The position numbers and the translations under genes are program-made. 6,289 bases of DNA, from the IMG/VR virus record IMGVR_UViG_2548876949_000016; one strand, written 5' to 3'. Below the pieces are notes generated by a model. That model was not told the origin of the DNA and did no database searches. It saw nothing but the letters and a program-made list of their open reading frames with translations. The stretch is from a virus (lineage: Duplodnaviria; Heunggongvirae; Uroviricota; Caudoviricetes). Positions 973-5,994 of the stretch are shown here, in pieces. Each line of letters starts with the position of its first letter. Within the stretch, counting starts at the first letter, position 1.

Positions 973-1392
973 CTATGATGCGTTTTGTGCTTTCTTTTTA
1001 CGGATTTCTTCGTAGATCATATTGTAATACTGTTTTTTCTCTTCAAGAGTTTTTAATAATTTATCCGCTTCACTTTCTGGCAGTTCGTCTAAGAGATCTA
1101 AAAAAATACGTTGTCGTGGCGTTAGAACCCTTGTTTCATAACTGGAGGCTGTGTTCGTTGATGATGAAACGATACCATCCATCCATCCCCGGGGTAACCC
1201 AAAGGACTCTTCGATAATCTCCACCATATCATCAGCGATCCGTTTTTTTCCCTTTTTCCCCTCTGGGTACAACATTCTTGATACATAAGAAGGCTCGCGC
1301 CCGATCTTTCTGGCCACGTTAACCGCTTTACCATCGCATTTCTCATCACGAATTTTGATGAGTTGCTGTCGTCTAAATTCATATTTGTCCAT
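973..1392 (-). CDS. CI-like prophage repressor (139 aa) with N-terminal helix-turn-helix and no LexA/S24 peptidase domain
   Basis: Divergent from the cro-like gene; N-terminal segment KAVNVARKIGREPSYVSRM looks like a classical HTH; AT-rich codon usage typical of immunity genes; C-terminal half is charged/coiled-coil-like with no Ser-Lys dyad or S24 fold signature; flanked by repeated operator palindromes. Confidence 0.75.
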   Translation of the reverse strand: MDKYEFRRQQLIKIRDEKCDGKAVNVARKIGREPSYVSRMLYPEGKKGKKRIADDMVEIIEESFGLPRGWMDGIVSSSTNTASSYETRVLTPRQRIFLDLLDELPESEADKLLKTLEEKKQYYNMIYEEIRKKKAQNAS

Positions 1393-2205: not shown

Positions 2206-3168
2206 ATGAGCAGCAAGCTTCATGGTCTTGTCTGGGAAGGGTGCGCCTTCACCGGCATGATCTTATCCAGGGTGGCGGTTATGGCCCGTCTTGCAGACTA
2301 CAGCAATGACGAGGGCGTGTCATGGCCTGCCATTGAAACTATCCGGCGTCAGATCGGTGCAAGAAGTGAATCCACAGTGAAATCGGCTATTGCAGAACTG
2401 GCGAAAGAGGGCTGGCTGACGAAGGAAGAGCGTAAGGTCGGTGGGCGTAATGTAAGCAATATCTATCGGCTTAATGTGGAAAAACTCGAAGCAGCTGCGG
2501 CGGCGGCGCGTGAGTCATATAAACCGAAAAGAAAAATTAGCCCGGCAAAAAATGACCCGTTAACAGTTGACCCGTCAAATATTGACCCCTCAACGGTTGA
2601 CCCGTCAAATTTTGATGGATCAACTGTTGATAAAAAACTGCCGATTAGGGGGGCGATGATTGACCCCGATCCGTCAGTATTAAAACCTGATCCGTCAGAT
2701 AAAAGATCTTCTTGTCCGGACGCTTCGCAACCGGACCCGCAGACGGCTGAACAGGATTTTTTAACCCGACACCCTGACGCGGTTGTGTTCAGTGCGAAAA
2801 AACGCCAGTGGGGAAGTCAGGAAGATTTGGTGTGCGCACAGTGGATCTGGGGACGAATCGTGAGTCTTTACGAGCAGGCGGCCAGCTATGATGGCGAGAT
2901 CACTAGACCGAAAGAACCCAACTGGACAGCATGGGCCAATGACGTTCGCACAATGCGGATGCTGGATGGCAGAACTCACAGACAAATTTGTGAAATGTTT
3001 GGGCGTCTCCAGCGGGATTCGTTCTGGGTAAAAAACATCATGAGTCCGGCAAAACTCCGGGAAAAATGGGATGAACTGGTTATCCGCCTGGGGCGTTCGC
3101 CTGCGCAGCGTTGCGTGAATCACATTTCTGAACCGGACACTGAAATACCGCCGGGATTCAGGGGGTGA
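2206..3168 (+). CDS. phage replication initiation protein: N-terminal HTH origin-binding domain, repeat-rich linker, DnaT-like (primosomal protein 1) C-terminal domain
   Basis: ATG 2206 preceded by a GGGGGG SD (2196..2201); the track's GTG at 2191 is an alternative start. N-terminal region has HTH character (SWPAIETIRRQIGARSESTVKSAIAELAKEGWL). C-terminus ends SEPDTEIPPGFRG, matching my recollection of the E. coli DnaT C-terminus (SEPDSQIPPGFRG). Contains the iteron array and is immediately followed by a DnaC homologue. Confidence 0.7.
   Translation: MSSKLHGLVWEGCAFTGMILSRVAVMARLADYSNDEGVSWPAIETIRRQIGARSESTVKSAIAELAKEGWLTKEERKVGGRNVSNIYRLNVEKLEAAAAAARESYKPKRKISPAKNDPLTVDPSNIDPSTVDPSNFDGSTVDKKLPIRGAMIDPDPSVLKPDPSDKRSSCPDASQPDPQTAEQDFLTRHPDAVVFSAKKRQWGSQEDLVCAQWIWGRIVSLYEQAASYDGEITRPKEPNWTAWANDVRTMRMLDGRTHRQICEMFGRLQRDSFWVKNIMSPAKLREKWDELVIRLGRSPAQRCVNHISEPDTEIPPGFRG
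2551..2640. repeat. iteron array (putative prophage origin of replication) embedded in the initiator gene: six 15-bp units, four well conserved
   Basis: Units at 2551, 2566, 2581, 2596, 2611, 2626: aatgacccgttaaca / gttgacccgtcaaat / attgacccctcaacg / gttgacccgtcaaat / tttgatggatcaact / gttgataaaaaactg; units 2 and 4 are identical. A further ATTGACCCC copy at 2659..2667. Followed by AT-rich stretches and four GATC sites (2618, 2668, 2689, 2705). Confidence 0.55.
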
Positions 3169-3174
3169 CGTGTC

Positions 3175-3921
3175 ATGAAAAACATTGCGGCAGTTGGGGT
3201 TCTTGAACGTATTCGCAGACTTGCACCACAGGGGTCGGTTCCACCGTACCGGACGGTGGAGGAGTGGCGGGAATGGCAACTTGCTGAAGGACGAAAACGC
3301 AGCGAGGAGATTAACCGCCAGAATCGCCAGTTGCGGGTGGAAAAAATCCTGAATCGTTCGGGCATCCAGCCTCTGCACAGCAAATGCTCGTTTGCAAATT
3401 ATCAGGTGCAGAACGACGGGCAAAAATACGCGCTGAGCCAGGCCAAATCCATAGCTGACGAACTGATGACCGGGTGCACGAATTTTGTGTTCAGTGGTAA
3501 AACCGGCACCGGGAAAAATCACCTTGCAGCGGCGATGGGCAACCGGCTGATGGTGAAGGGGCGCAGCGTGATTATCGTCACCGTGTCTGACGTCATGAGC
3601 GTGTTGCATGACAGCTACGACAACGGCAAATCCGGGGAAAAATTTTTACAGGAGCTTTGCGGGGTTGATTTGCTGGTCCTGGATGAAATAGGCGTTCAGC
3701 GGGAGACGAAAAACGAGCAGGTGGTATTGCACCAGATAATTGATCGCCGGACAGCATCACTGTGCAGTGTCGGGATGTTAACAAACCTGAATCATGCCGC
3801 AATGAGTACGCTTCTTGGTGAGAGGATTATGGACCGCATGACCATGAACGGTGGTCGATGGGTGACGTTTAACTGGGATAGCTGGCGTCCAAATGTCAGC
3901 AATATGAGGGTTGTGAAGTAA
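3175..3921 (+). CDS. DnaC-like replicative helicase loader (AAA+ ATPase, 248 aa)
   Basis: Walker A FSGKTGTGKNHLAAA and Walker B LLVLDEIGVQ, plus overall collinearity with E. coli DnaC as I recall it (N-terminal MKN..., RSGIQPLH, MLTN, LLGERIMDRM, FNWDSWR). Start is 7 nt after the initiator stop, with a purine-rich SD. Confidence 0.85.
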   Translation: MKNIAAVGVLERIRRLAPQGSVPPYRTVEEWREWQLAEGRKRSEEINRQNRQLRVEKILNRSGIQPLHSKCSFANYQVQNDGQKYALSQAKSIADELMTGCTNFVFSGKTGTGKNHLAAAMGNRLMVKGRSVIIVTVSDVMSVLHDSYDNGKSGEKFLQELCGVDLLVLDEIGVQRETKNEQVVLHQIIDRRTASLCSVGMLTNLNHAAMSTLLGERIMDRMTMNGGRWVTFNWDSWRPNVSNMRVVK

Positions 3922-3942: not shown

Positions 3943-4713
3943 ATGGAAACCGTATCTGACGCACTGAAAGCACTGAAAAAAGCCTCTTCACATGTGGTGG
4001 CAGCTCGCCTTGGAATCAGTCGTGAAGAGGCTGTCAACGAGCTGTGGGAACTCAAAAGAAAAGGCGTCGTTGATAAAACTGGTCACACCTGGTTTCTGGC
4101 TGGCGAAGGTGAATCCCGGGTAACCGAAGAGCGGCCAGTAAAATCTGAAGCACAGGATATGCTGACCGGGGAGGTCGAACAAAAAGTTACCGCAGACATG
4201 ATGATTGAGTTTATCGGTCAGGATGGGGCTAAAACGTGTGAGGAACTGGCGGGTAAGTTCGGTGTCAGTACTCGCAAGGTTGCTTCCACGCTGGCGGTGG
4301 TAACCGCAACGGGGCGGCTGGCACGCGTTAATCAGAACGGTAAATTTCGTTACTGCATGCCGGGCGATAATTTACCAGCAGAGCCGAAAGCCGCGCTGGT
4401 AACGGAAAGTGATGGTAAGGCCTTTCCTCAGCCAGCAGGTGCTGCGTTACCAGTCCGGGAAGCCGCAACACAGGAAGAAATTAAAACAGAAACTGTGGCG
4501 GACATTGTGCAGCCGTTGCCATCGTTTACCGAAACGCAAGCAGATGAGCTGATTTTTCCGTCCCTTCGCAGGGCAAACCTGGCGCTGCGCAGGGCGAAAA
4601 GTGATGTTCAGAAGTGGGAGCGAGTCTGCGCCGCGCTGCGGGAGCTGAACAAGCACCGGGATATTGTTCGACAGATTACTGATTCTTCCCGCCGTGTTGT
4701 ATCGGAAAAGTGA
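3943..4713 (+). CDS. hypothetical protein (256 aa) with two tandem winged-helix-like modules, possibly DUF1627/YdaW-like
   Basis: GGAGGA SD 3930..3935, ATG 3943. Internal duplication visible in the translation: residues ~5-53 (VAARLGISREEAVNELWELKRKGVVDKTGHTWFL) and ~84-140 (CEELAGKFGVSTRKVASTLAVVTATGRLARVNQNGKFRYCM) both fit a winged-helix pattern; basic helical C-terminus. Follows the DnaC-like gene as ydaW does in Rac. Confidence 0.55.
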   Translation: METVSDALKALKKASSHVVAARLGISREEAVNELWELKRKGVVDKTGHTWFLAGEGESRVTEERPVKSEAQDMLTGEVEQKVTADMMIEFIGQDGAKTCEELAGKFGVSTRKVASTLAVVTATGRLARVNQNGKFRYCMPGDNLPAEPKAALVTESDGKAFPQPAGAALPVREAATQEEIKTETVADIVQPLPSFTETQADELIFPSLRRANLALRRAKSDVQKWERVCAALRELNKHRDIVRQITDSSRRVVSEK

Positions 4714-4728
4714 TTGCCGGAGGCGCTT

Positions 4729-5154
4729 ATGGCAAAAGTATTTACACAAGAAGAGCGGGAAAAAATTAAAGGGCAGGTTGTTGAACTTGTACGTCTGAGC
4801 GGTCGCGAGACGTTGCGGCAACTGGAAGCCAAGACAGGTGCGACAAGATATCTGATGAGTGTTCTCGCCAGAGAGCTGGTTGCCAGTGGCGATGTATACA
4901 ACTCTGGTTACGGGTTATTCCCGTCTGAACAGGCGCGTAAGGACTGGCAAAATGCTCGCAAAAAACTCTCAAGGGCAAAGGTGAAGAAACCTGCAGTGGT
5001 TGATCCGGACCTTATCTGGTCGTTACCAGACGGCGAAATACGCCGCTACGACAGGCGCCTGAATATAATCTGTCGCGAGTGCCGGAAGAGCGAAGCTATG
5101 CAGCGTGTACTGGCATTTTATCAAGGAAATGTTAGGTATTTTAGACGTTACTAG
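4729..5154 (+). CDS. hypothetical protein (141 aa from ATG 4729) with one winged-helix-like module and a basic Cys-containing C-terminus
   Basis: GGAGG SD 4719..4723, 5 nt before ATG 4729; the track's 4714 start is an in-frame TTG just after the upstream stop. Segment VVELVRLSGRETLRQLEAKTGATRYLMSVLARELVASGDV has winged-helix character; no family recognised. Confidence 0.5.
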   Translation: MAKVFTQEEREKIKGQVVELVRLSGRETLRQLEAKTGATRYLMSVLARELVASGDVYNSGYGLFPSEQARKDWQNARKKLSRAKVKKPAVVDPDLIWSLPDGEIRRYDRRLNIICRECRKSEAMQRVLAFYQGNVRYFRRY

Positions 5155-5307: not shown

Positions 5308-5994
5308 ATGACCCCAATAAAAATATTTATGACTATTGCTGATTTCAAACGGCCTAAATTGGAGCTCCCAAACGGGGCAAACAAACTACTACTGCACTCT
5401 TGCTGTGCTCCATGTTCCGGTGAAGTGATGGAGGCGCTTCAGGCCTCGGGAATCGACTACACCATCTTTTTCTACAACCCGAACATTCATCCTCAGAAAG
5501 AGTATTTAATTCGTAAGGATGAAAATATTCGCTTTGCTGAACAACACGGCGTGCCGTTTATCGATGCTGATTACGACACCGACAACTGGTTTGAACGTGC
5601 CAAAGGAATGGAATGGGAGCCTGAGAGGGGGATCCGTTGTACCATGTGTTTTGACATGCGTTTTGAGCGGACAGCGTTGTACGCTGCTGAAAATGGTTTC
5701 AGTGTGATCAGCAGTTCACTGGGCATTTCACGCTGGAAAAATATGCAGCAGGTTAACGAGTGTGGGCGGCGAGCTGTTGCGCATTATCCGGGTATGGTGT
5801 ACTGGGATTATAACTGGCGCAAGCAGGGCGGCTCGTCCCGTATGATTGAAATCAGCAAGCGCGAAAAATTCTATCAGCAGGAATATTGTGGCTGTGTGTA
5901 TTCTCTGCGCGATACCAATCTACACCGCAAATCTCAGGGACGCCCTCTTATCAAAATTGGCCAACTCCACTACGGAAAAGAAGAGAAGGAGTGA
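5308..5994 (+). CDS. queH: QueH-like epoxyqueuosine reductase (DUF208 family, 228 aa), prophage cargo
   Basis: Three cysteine motifs that I recall as the QueH/DUF208 signature: [11 protein letters not shown] (nt ~5389..5421), [10 protein letters not shown] (~5638..5667) and EYCGCVYS (~5881..5904). Separated from the upstream gene by a 153-bp gap containing TTGACA at 5182..5187. No convincing Shine-Dalgarno before ATG 5308 or the alternative ATG 5329, so the start is uncertain. Confidence 0.6.

What the first reader, a model, noticed from the sequence alone, without database searches (positions are those of the whole stretch)
2206..3921. Phage copy of the host dnaT-dnaC module, with DnaT-like domain fused to an origin-binding HTH
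The initiator ends with SEPDTEIPPGFRG, closely matching the E. coli DnaT C-terminus as I recall it, and the next gene is an unmistakable DnaC paralogue (Walker A GKTGTGKN). The prophage therefore appears to recruit the host DnaB helicase via a DnaT-like/DnaC-like pair rather than a lambda O/P pair. The initiator is a three-part chimera: HTH, iteron-encoded linker, DnaT-like domain. That links PriA-type restart machinery to origin-specific initiation.
Basis: partly seen in the sequence, partly recalled or inferred. Interest (0 to 1): 0.55.

Follow-up and report, generated by a model that had tools for sequence, protein, structure and literature searches.

The report
Lambda-O-like phage initiator with DnaT tail
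This is a common E. coli prophage replication module: a lambda-O-type origin-binding protein followed by a DnaC-type helicase loader, ordinary except that its last 20 residues copy the tail of the host restart protein DnaT, a tail that across phages goes with DnaC-type loading and so suggests a role for the unexplained DnaT tail.

Summary
The 320-aa initiator (2206-3168) ends in QRCVNHISEPDTEIPPGFRG. That is 14/20 identical to the E. coli DnaT C-terminus. The next gene (3175-3921) is a full-length DnaC paralogue, 48% identical.

Nothing else in the initiator is DnaT-like. Pfam PF17948, profile-profile comparison and fold search all fail. Residues 182-297 are instead the lambda O C-terminal domain (39% identity, E=5e-26; PHROG 'replication initiation O-like'). 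So this is an O-like/DnaC-like module, like Rac ydaU-ydaV. At least 80% of the window is present in 485 of 5426 complete E. coli genomes.

The interesting part is the tail. It is disordered and always C-terminal. It sits on at least four unrelated C-terminal domains, including true DnaT domains in other phages.

Initiators with the same lambda-O-type domain carry swapped tails that track the loader:
- GFRG-type tails: lambda-P-like gene next door in 0 of 13 loci.
- Trp-acidic tails, as in lambda O: P-like gene next door in 23 of 24 loci.
- GFRG-tailed initiators have either a DnaC-like loader or none.

I infer, without direct evidence, that the tail docks a DnaB-DnaC-type complex. That is a testable idea for how DnaT recruits DnaB/DnaC.

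The parts
2206..3168 (+). Replication initiator gene (320 aa), lambda-O-like
   Evidence: ORF. RefSeq CDS with the same start. PHROG 391 'replication initiation O-like', 386 bits over residues 1-320. 914 homologues, mostly from Enterobacterales prophages.
2206..2520 (+). N-terminal winged-helix origin-binding domain (residues 1-105; the HTH_36 match corresponds to nt 2278-2418)
   Evidence: Pfam PF13730, 27.8 bits against a cut-off of 25, plus a weak DnaD_N match. The AlphaFold2 model has pLDDT 75-90 here, with helices and a beta-hairpin. Foldseek matches to MarR/ArsR-type winged helices.
2532..2630 (.). Iteron array (putative origin): about 5 copies of TTGACCCGTC at 15-nt spacing. Each unit is a TTGAC-CC-GTCAA palindrome.
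   Evidence: Repeat family D1 and inverted repeat I1. TRF period 15 with 5 copies, or period 30 with 3 copies. 14 matches with up to 2 mismatches against 4.96 expected; none of 200 shuffles reached 14. Lambda has its ori iterons at the same place inside O.
2521..2745 (+). Disordered Pro/Asp/Ser-rich linker (residues 106-180), encoded by the iterons; its length varies between homologues
   Evidence: pLDDT 34-52. The alignment shows insertions and deletions of DPS-type repeat units.
2749..3096 (+). Lambda-O-type C-terminal helical domain (residues 182-297)
3106..3165 (+). DnaT-type C-terminal tail QRCVNHISEPDTEIPPGFRG (residues 301-320); proposed docking motif for a DnaB-DnaC-type complex
   Evidence: 14/20 identical to DnaT residues 160-179. 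Predicted disordered. Near-invariant PD..IP.GFRG in DnaT orthologues. Found on many initiator scaffolds. Never found next to an intact lambda-P-like gene.
3175..3921 (+). DnaC-type helicase loader paralogue (248 aa). Walker A at nt 3496-3519, Walker B (DLLVLDE) at nt 3667-3687.
   Evidence: NF009043, 506 bits; PF01695, 68.6 bits. 48% identity to E. coli DnaC over the full length, with A84 conserved. PHROG 50 'DnaC-like helicase loader'. It starts 6 nt after the initiator stop codon, as dnaC starts 2 nt after the dnaT stop codon.

Best explanation
The region is the replication module of a lambdoid prophage, built like lambda O-P but with a different helicase-loading branch.

Shown or strongly supported:
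- The initiator has an N-terminal winged-helix domain.
- Palindromic iterons lie inside its own gene, and the domain presumably binds them.
- A disordered linker follows.
- Next comes a lambda-O-type helical C-terminal domain.
- The protein ends in a disordered 20-residue tail that matches the C-terminal tail of host DnaT.
- The adjacent gene encodes a DnaC paralogue.

Inferred:
- The extreme C-terminal tail is a short linear motif that decides which helicase-loading system the origin-bound initiator recruits.
- Trp-acidic tails (lambda O: ...NTDWIYGVDL) recruit lambda-P-type loaders.
- The PD..IP.GFRG tail recruits a DnaB-DnaC-type complex, made with the phage DnaC paralogue here and with host DnaC in phages that encode no loader.
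- By extension, the identical tail of DnaT would be the element, or one of the elements, by which the PriA-PriB-DnaT preprimosome engages DnaB-DnaC.
- Whether the tail touches DnaC or DnaB cannot be decided from sequence.
For: Module identity. Prophage context with integrase, repressor, cro-like and cII-like genes.

The tail is a portable module.
- A scan of IMG/VR for [EQ]IP[PA]GFRG followed by a stop codon found it on several N-terminal types and three C-terminal domain types.
- Those include true DnaT domains: PF17948 at 52.7-65.4 bits in L100, L155 and L168.
- K-12 Rac YdaU has a fourth C-terminal domain type, ends ...RQVNTVSLPDSAIPPGFRG, and is followed 6 nt later by the DnaC-like YdaV.
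- A second scan for Y.IPEGFRG, without requiring a stop codon, gave 73 in-frame hits. In every one the motif lay at the very C-terminus, with at most one residue after it in the tails printed.

The tail tracks the loader while the domain stays the same.
- In 57 loci from different species that share the lambda-O-type domain, GFRG-like tails had a P-like gene in 0 of 13 (DnaC-like in 3, no loader in 10).
- Trp-acidic tails had a P-like gene in 23 of 24. Fisher's exact p=4e-9, not corrected for phylogeny.
- Pfam-annotated contigs agree.
- In IMG/VR, of 71 tail-bearing loci with at least 800 nt downstream, 16 have a DnaC-like gene and none has a P-like gene anywhere in the locus.

The same rule holds on DnaT-domain scaffolds.
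- P0302 (HTH_36 + DnaT domain + HWNSPEAWEDFL tail) is followed by a lambda-P-like gene.
- SPN1S (DnaT domain + GFRG tail) has no loader.
- Aeromonas phage pAEv1818 (DnaT domain + ...KPPGFN tail) is followed by a DnaC-like loader.

Selection: the tail is near-invariant in DnaT orthologues. Of the 14 residues identical to DnaT, 8 use different codons.

Literature:
- The last 5 residues of lambda O are essential, and the C-terminal region of O is the proposed P-binding part (PMC6022878).
- DnaT has a flexible 20-residue tail with no assigned partner (PMC5778457).
- The 2026 preprimosome paper never mentions the tail, and the DnaT chain sequence held for 9zbu ends at residue 154.
- How DnaB/DnaC is recruited is stated to be unknown (PMC13377028; PMC11087952).
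Against: - There is no binding or genetic data for the tail in any of these proteins.
- The tail-coding DNA lies directly next to the loader gene, so the two would be inherited together by linkage alone. The loci are also related, so the Fisher p-value overstates independence.
- The preprimosome authors favour the DnaT N-terminal domain as the DnaB/DnaC recruiter. [quoted passage not shown]
- Removing DnaT residues 154-179 weakens ssDNA binding about two-fold (PMC4132743), so the tail may have a role in DNA binding.
- Four Alishewanella/Arsukibacterium loci pair a DnaC-like loader with a different tail.
- One metagenomic initiator with ...MDYTIPEGFRG is followed, after a 300-nt gap without an ORF, by a 127-aa C-terminal fragment of a P-like gene.
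- The same tail serves host DnaC and a phage DnaC that is only 48% identical. This fits a conserved partner such as DnaB at least as well as it fits DnaC.
Confidence: 0.6

Rival explanations
1. The initiator carries a DnaT-like ssDNA-binding domain (residues ~200-320) fused to an HTH. The phage uses a copy of the host dnaT-dnaC module and so ties origin firing to PriA-type restart.
For: - The tail match is real.
- The junction resembles the host one: the tail, a stop codon, a 2-6 nt spacer, then ATG AAA AAC for MKN.
- Other phages do fuse a genuine DnaT domain to origin-binding domains: SPN1S, phiV10, epsilon15, L100, L155 and L168.
Against: - In this protein there is no PF17948 hit.
- hhalign aligns only the tail.
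- The domain is clearly lambda-O-type.
- The DnaT N-terminal domain is also absent.
Confidence: 0.05
2. The tail binds PriA or PriB. Tail-bearing initiators would then hijack the host restart primosome at the phage origin instead of contacting DnaB-DnaC directly.
For: DnaT's established partners are PriA, PriB and ssDNA. Loader-less phages with the tail need some host route to DnaB.
Against: - In the cryo-EM structures PriA is contacted by the DnaT helical bundle and PriB by the acidic linker. The paper does not mention the tail.
- This model does not explain why the tail is excluded from P-type modules yet kept next to phage DnaC paralogues.
Confidence: 0.12
3. The tail is a DNA-binding or oligomerisation aid, with its Arg and Phe contacting ssDNA, and is not a recruitment motif.
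For: DnaT 84-153 binds dT30 about two-fold more weakly, and less cooperatively, than DnaT 84-179.
Against: - The alternative tails at the same position are Trp-acidic and unlikely to bind DNA.
- The tail type correlates with the loader gene, not with the DNA-binding domain type.
Confidence: 0.13
4. The tail-loader association is only genetic linkage. Mosaic recombination breakpoints happen to fall upstream of the tail, and the tail has no loader-specific function.
For: - The tail codons lie 6 nt from the loader gene.
- Lambdoid genomes are mosaics.
- The loci are not independent.
Against: - Initiators with no loader gene keep a conserved GFRG tail.
- The tail is conserved across at least four C-terminal domain types and in chromosomal DnaT, despite synonymous divergence.
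- The last five residues of lambda O are essential.
Confidence: 0.1

Closest known systems
Bacteriophage lambda O-P replication module
   Same: - Gene order: cII-like gene, initiator, loader.
- Iterons lie inside the initiator gene, in the linker-coding part.
- The C-terminal domains are homologous: 39% identity, E=5e-26.
- The extreme C-terminus is functionally important in O.
   Different: - The N-terminal DNA-binding domain is HTH_36-type with different iterons.
- The Trp-acidic tail of O (...NTDWIYGVDL) is replaced by the DnaT-type tail.
- The loader is an AAA+ DnaC paralogue instead of P.
E. coli K-12 Rac prophage ydaU-ydaV (with ydaS, ydaT, ydaW)
   Same: - Same gene order, with YdaS-like, YdaT-like, DnaC-like and DUF1627 (YdaW-like) genes.
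- YdaU ends ...VNTVSLPDSAIPPGFRG and is followed 6 nt later by the DnaC-like YdaV.
   Different: YdaU has a DUF1376 N-terminal domain and a different C-terminal domain. The window's initiator is HTH_36 plus a lambda-O-type domain.
E. coli dnaT-dnaC operon (primosomal protein DnaT and helicase loader DnaC)
   Same: - Tail PD..IP.GFRG, 14/20 identical.
- The gene is directly followed by a dnaC-type gene that starts MKN.
- The loaders are 48% identical.
   Different: - No DnaT N-terminal oligomerisation domain and no PF17948 bundle.
- The window protein is sequence-specific and origin-bound. DnaT is recruited by PriA/PriB to forks.
Phage initiators with a genuine DnaT domain (Salmonella phage SPN1S, epsilon15, phiV10; NCBI name 'DnaT-like ssDNA-binding domain-containing protein'; often annotated 'primosomal protein I')
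   Same: They have the same C-terminal tail and the same position in the early right operon. Public records of close relatives of this window already carry the name 'primosomal protein I'.
   Different: Those proteins have PF17948 and the window protein does not. SPN1S encodes no loader.
DopC-DopE (Brezellec et al. 2017, PMC5509034)
   Same: An HTH_36 N-terminal domain is joined to a different C-terminal module, next to a helicase-loader gene.
   Different: DopC carries a DnaT C-terminal motif and pairs with a lambda-P-like DopE, and it is chromosomal. A phage analogue found here, P0302, has HTH_36, a DnaT domain and a Trp-acidic tail, and is followed by a P-like gene.

Membership tests
DnaT (primosomal protein I; NF002770, Pfam PF17948) | Three-helix-bundle ssDNA-binding domain (PF17948) | tested here: not met
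DnaT (primosomal protein I; NF002770, Pfam PF17948) | N-terminal oligomerisation domain (DnaT residues 1-83) and overall equivalog score | tested here: not met
   NF002770 scores 16.7 bits against a cut-off of 201, matching residues 305-325 of the 325-aa ORF only. BLASTP finds no other significant segment.
DnaT (primosomal protein I; NF002770, Pfam PF17948) | Conserved flexible C-terminal tail PD..IP.GFRG | tested here: met
   14/20 identical. The motif is near-invariant in 107 DnaT orthologues. It is predicted disordered in the models.
DnaT (primosomal protein I; NF002770, Pfam PF17948) | Binding to PriA and PriB, and function in replication restart | not testable with these tools
   This needs biochemistry. 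The contact elements known from cryo-EM, the bundle and the acidic linker, have no detectable counterpart here.
Lambda-O-type replication initiator (PHROG 391) | Lambda-O-like C-terminal domain | tested here: met
   39% identity over residues 182-300 against O residues 171-277, E=5e-26. PHROG 391 scores 386 bits over the full length.
Lambda-O-type replication initiator (PHROG 391) | Iterons within the initiator gene, between the two domains | tested here: met
   Array at 2532-2630. Lambda iterons are annotated at the equivalent place.
Lambda-O-type replication initiator (PHROG 391) | Lambda-O-type N-terminal origin-binding domain | tested here: inconclusive
   BLASTP finds no significant N-terminal similarity to lambda O. 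The domain is an HTH_36 winged helix, a different specificity type that recombines freely with the C-terminal domain.
Lambda-O-type replication initiator (PHROG 391) | Trp-acidic C-terminal tail and an adjacent lambda-P-type loader | tested here: not met
   The tail is ...EIPPGFRG and the next gene is DnaC-type. Lambda O ends ...NTDWIYGVDL and is followed by P.
DnaC-type AAA+ helicase loader (PF01695; NF009043 PRK12377 subfamily) | IstB/DnaC AAA+ module with Walker A and B, scoring above the family cut-off | tested here: met
   PF01695 scores 68.6 bits against 24.1; NF009043 scores 506 against 389. Walker A is at residues 108-115 and Walker B at 165-171.
DnaC-type AAA+ helicase loader (PF01695; NF009043 PRK12377 subfamily) | Orthology with chromosomal DnaC (NF005931 equivalog) | tested here: not met
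   299 bits, below the cut-off of 357, and 48% identity. It is a prophage paralogue.
DnaC-type AAA+ helicase loader (PF01695; NF009043 PRK12377 subfamily) | N-terminal DnaB-binding region, and loading of DnaB | not testable with these tools
   The N-terminal 60 residues align with DnaC without large gaps. The activity itself needs experiments.
DnaD-like / replisome-organiser C-terminal domain | DnaD-like helical fold | tested here: inconclusive

The most novel reading that the evidence does not exclude
The last ~13 residues of lambdoid initiators, and of chromosomal DnaT, form an interchangeable 'loader address'. PD..IP.GF(R/N)G would dock DnaB-DnaC-type complexes and Trp-acidic tails would dock lambda-P-type loaders. 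If so, the flexible DnaT tail, rather than or in addition to the DnaT N-terminal domain, is how the PriA-PriB-DnaT preprimosome recruits DnaB-DnaC. The dnaT-dnaC operon would then descend from a phage pair of a tail-bearing initiator and a DnaC-type loader.
Probability: 0.45. Interest if true: 0.75.

Novelty: new member of a known kind. Interest (0 to 1): 0.55.

Why it matters
The module itself is ordinary and abundant. It is one more combination in the lambdoid replication mosaic, close to Rac ydaU-ydaV.

Its value is as a natural experiment. Initiators with the same lambda-O-type domain differ almost only in a short C-terminal tail, and that tail predicts which loader gene follows. One of the tails is the tail of DnaT.

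Reviews and the 2024-2026 structural and biochemical papers state that the contact between the PriA-PriB-DnaT preprimosome and DnaB-DnaC is unknown. They assign no partner to the DnaT tail. The comparison points to a specific 13-residue peptide that can be tested directly with existing in vitro restart assays. It also points to a simple way to re-target phage origins between loader systems.

Tried and rejected
- **Foldseek with the full-length model.** It returned only winged-helix regulators for the N-terminal domain and said nothing about the C-terminal domain.
- **First IMG/VR scan with the single C-terminal sequence.** It returned 80 near-identical prophages and added no diversity.
- **Recent gene conversion from host dnaT.** Rejected because of synonymous divergence in the tail and only 48% identity of the loaders.
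- **Apparent exceptions to the tail-loader rule.** L215, L246, L248, L255 and L262 were artefacts of my ORF calling. tblastn finds the expected loader in each.
- **Host taxonomy of metagenomic DnaT-domain proteins.** The cluster look-up gave almost no names.
- **Wrobel & Wegrzyn 2002, 'Evolution of lambdoid replication modules'.** Not held in the library, so I could not check whether the tail was noted there.
- **Complex prediction of the tail with DnaB-DnaC.** Not possible with the tools and caps available.
Full report
**Context.** The window matches E. coli chromosomes at up to 100% identity. At least 80% of it is present in 485 of 5426 complete genomes. In strain F2_407_2_2 it lies in a lambdoid prophage between potC and the terminase genes, next to integrase, excisionase, exonuclease and kil. 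The gene order in the window is:
- a cI-like repressor (973-1392, minus strand);
- a YdaS/cro-like gene (1493-1774);
- a YdaT/cII-like gene (1758-2183);
- the initiator (2206-3168);
- a DnaC-like gene (3175-3921);
- DUF1627 (3943-4713);
- DUF977 (4714-5154);
- QueH (5308-5994).

**The observation.** The initiator ends ...AQRCVNHISEPDTEIPPGFRG. I checked my recalled DnaT sequence against PDB 9zbt_D and it is identical. BLASTP aligns initiator residues 301-320 with DnaT residues 160-179, with 14/20 identical and a pairwise E-value of 1e-7. Nothing else aligns. The same 21 residues are the only match to the NCBIfam DnaT model (16.7 bits against a cut-off of 201). They are also the only match to the DnaT chains 2ru8, 6aep and 9zbt.

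The neighbouring protein aligns end to end with E. coli DnaC of the DnaB-DnaC structure 6qel (E=2.4e-74). Identity is 48%, and the Walker A motif GKTGTGKN is at residues 108-115. It meets the PRK12377 subfamily model but not the DnaC equivalog model, so it is a paralogue. An HTH_36 domain and about five 15-nt-spaced copies of TTGACCCGTC at 2532-2630 confirm the HTH and iteron-linker parts of the finding.

**What the C-terminal domain is.** The claim of a DnaT-like domain at residues ~200-320 fails every test.
- There is no PF17948 hit, although DnaT itself scores 75 bits and three phage proteins score 53-65 bits in the same scan.
- hhalign of a 21-sequence profile of the domain against a 23-sequence DnaT profile aligns only the tail, at 10.9% probability.
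- The profile finds nothing among PDB sequences.
- An AlphaFold2 model of residues 176-320 is confident (mean pLDDT 83) and helical, with a disordered tail.

The positive identification came from lambda itself. Residues 182-300 are 39% identical to lambda O residues 171-277 (E=5e-26). The whole protein matches PHROG 391 'replication initiation O-like' (386 bits). Lambda also carries its iterons inside O, between the two domains. The module is therefore O-like plus DnaC-like.

**The tail is a separate, portable piece.** Among 120 close homologues, the N-terminal domain and the O-type domain are conserved while the last 12-25 residues fall into discrete classes:
- ...SEPDTEIPPGFRG;
- ...VDYSQIPAGFRG;
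- ...LPENSGFRS/T;
- ...HWNSPEAWENTL or ...EWNTPEGWRDVL;
- ...NWIDGIEDDLVNAGVLP.

A DNA-pattern scan of IMG/VR for [EQ]IP[PA]GFRG followed by a stop codon found the tail on several different N-terminal domains and on three C-terminal domain types. One of those types is the genuine DnaT domain, seen in L100 (DUF1376 + DnaT), L155 and L168. E. coli K-12 Rac YdaU adds a fourth C-terminal domain type. It ends ...RQVNTVSLPDSAIPPGFRG and is followed 6 nt later by the DnaC-like YdaV.

A second scan for Y.IPEGFRG, without a stop codon in the pattern, gave 73 in-frame hits. In all of them the motif lay at the very C-terminus of an initiator-like protein, with at most one residue after it in the tails printed. 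In DnaT orthologues PD..IP.GFRG is nearly invariant. Between DnaT and the window, 8 of the 14 identical tail residues use different codons. This points to long-standing purifying selection rather than a recent copy.

**The tail tracks the loader.** Contigs with precomputed Pfam annotation gave a consistent picture.
- Trp-acidic tails were followed by PF06992 (Phage_lambda_P) in Salmonella, Erwinia and Morganella prophages.
- GFRG, GFRT and GFRGY tails were followed by PerC, methyltransferase or ParB-like genes, with no loader.

A scan of one genome per species with the O-type-domain profile gave 57 loci. After tblastn correction of ORF-calling misses, the counts were as follows.

| Tail class | Loci | Lambda-P-like gene | DnaC-like gene | No loader |
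|---|---|---|---|---|
| GFRG-like | 13 | 0 | 3 | 10 |
| Trp-acidic | 24 | 23 | 0 | 1 |

Fisher's exact test gives p=4e-9, uncorrected for relatedness.

In IMG/VR, 71 tail-bearing loci had at least 800 nt of downstream sequence. Sixteen had a DnaC-like gene, nearly all starting 7 nt downstream, and none had a P-like gene anywhere in the locus. None of the 73 IPEGFRG loci had a detectable P-like or DnaC-like gene.

Lambda O belongs to the Trp-acidic class (...LDLTNTDWIYGVDL) and is followed by P. In lambda, an amber mutant that makes 294 of 299 residues is null. The authors conclude that the last five residues are essential, and the C-terminal region is the proposed P-binding part (PMC6022878).

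**The same rule on DnaT-domain scaffolds.** An exhaustive HMMER search with the DnaT profile found only 190 clusters. The long, phage-type members carry three kinds of tail: GF(R/N/H)G-type, Trp-acidic, or long acidic.
- P0302 (HTH_36 + DnaT domain + ...HWNSPEAWEDFL) is followed by a lambda-P-like gene.
- P0304 and Rac-SA53 'YdaU' have long acidic tails and are followed by a short P-like protein.
- SPN1S has a DnaT domain with the full tail and no loader.
- Aeromonas phage pAEv1818 has a DnaT domain with ...EKPPGFN and is followed by a DnaC-like loader.

The tail, not the domain in front of it, therefore follows the loader type.

**Exceptions and limits.**
- Four Alishewanella/Arsukibacterium loci pair a DnaC-like loader with another tail.
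- One metagenomic GFRG-tailed initiator is followed, after a 300-nt gap without an ORF, by a 127-aa C-terminal fragment of a P-like gene. I read this as a remnant, but it is a partial counter-example.
- The tail codons lie directly next to the loader gene, so linkage alone produces some association, and the loci are not independent.
- The same tail works with host DnaC and with a paralogue that is only 48% identical to it. The direct partner could therefore be DnaB or a conserved DnaC surface.
- There is no experimental evidence for any tail contact.

**Comparison with what is known.**
- Initiator plus DnaC-type-loader modules are familiar, for example Rac ydaU-ydaV. By my own recollection, 'initiator-solo' modules are also a recognised category in Weigel and Seitz's classification of phage replication modules.
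- Public phage records already label relatives of this protein 'primosomal protein I'. NCBI also uses the name 'DnaT-like ssDNA-binding domain-containing protein'.
- Brezellec et al. described an HTH_36 + DnaT-C architecture next to a P-like gene (DopC/DopE). They also showed that enterobacterial dnaC was domesticated from phage.
- I did not find the following in the searchable literature: that the tail alone is the shared element, that it is exchangeable among initiator scaffolds, and that it predicts the loader type.
- On the host side, the DnaT tail is described as a flexible 20-residue tail without a partner. The 2026 preprimosome paper never mentions it, and the DnaT chain sequence held for 9zbu ends at residue 154. 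That paper and the 2024 DnaC-variant paper both say the DnaB-DnaC contact is unknown.

**Verdict.** The feature is real, common, and a new combination within a known kind of module. The tail observation is right, and it leads to a specific, testable hypothesis about helicase-loader recruitment by phage initiators and by DnaT.

Noticed in passing
window 5308-5994 (RefSeq CDS corresponds to 5329-5994): A QueH-type epoxyqueuosine reductase (PF02677, 221 bits; PHROG 3217, function unknown) sits in the prophage early region, just before hokD. From my own knowledge E. coli uses QueG rather than QueH, so this would be a prophage-borne tRNA or queuosine-related accessory gene.
   Followed up: no
window 2567-2606: Each iteron core TTGAC-CC-GTCAA is itself a 5-bp-arm palindrome, and the array forms a larger imperfect dyad (I1, 2562-2594 / 2596-2628, 79% complementary). 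This fits binding by initiator dimers, as for lambda O. No marked AT-rich block follows the array.
   Followed up: partly
L275 4497-5171 (also L276): A GFRG-tailed initiator (HTH_36 + DnaT domain) is followed by a 300-nt gap without an ORF and then a 127-aa C-terminal fragment of a lambda-P-like gene. This may be the scar of a tail and loader replacement.
   Followed up: partly
L273 3501-4968; L279 1883-3407; proteins P0294-P0368: A third tail class on DnaT-domain initiators is long and acidic, for example ...GGLFEPLDPEERGRTFEALDCTDWRDD. It is followed by a short (~155 aa) P-like protein. In Rac-SA53 this short protein is annotated 'ydaV' although it is unrelated to the DnaC-like YdaV of K-12.
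   Followed up: partly
L266, L267, L269, L270 (Arsukibacterium, Alishewanella): Distant initiators with the lambda-O-type domain end ...QDWGKKARELAVKL and are followed by a 252-255-aa DnaC-like loader. DnaC-type loaders outside Enterobacterales therefore seem to use a different tail.
   Followed up: no
window 4714-5154 and 3943-4713: DUF977 matches PHROG 142 'Ren-like exclusion protein' and is called LygF in phage records. With DUF1627 (YdaW-like) it follows the loader here. In many tail-bearing phages without a loader, DUF977 comes about 40 nt after the initiator.
   Followed up: no
window 973-1392 (minus strand): The repressor-position gene (139 aa) has no Pfam hit. It has only a weak match to the C-terminal part of DicA (NF007257, 24.5 bits). 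The divergent intergenic region 1393-1492 separates it from the YdaS-like gene.
   Followed up: no
L001 11379-11600: The RefSeq record names the product of the prophage kil gene 'cell division protein FtsZ'. That looks like an annotation slip, because Kil inhibits FtsZ.
   Followed up: no
protein P0070 (and L096, L097, L104): P0070 has the window's N-terminal domain and linker joined to a different, Pfam-less C-terminal domain (...EQVWREYPLRAGANPKKSAFSAWKARL...). It ends in the identical tail NNQRCVNHISEPDTEIPPGFRG. This shows recombination on both sides of the C-terminal domain.
   Followed up: partly
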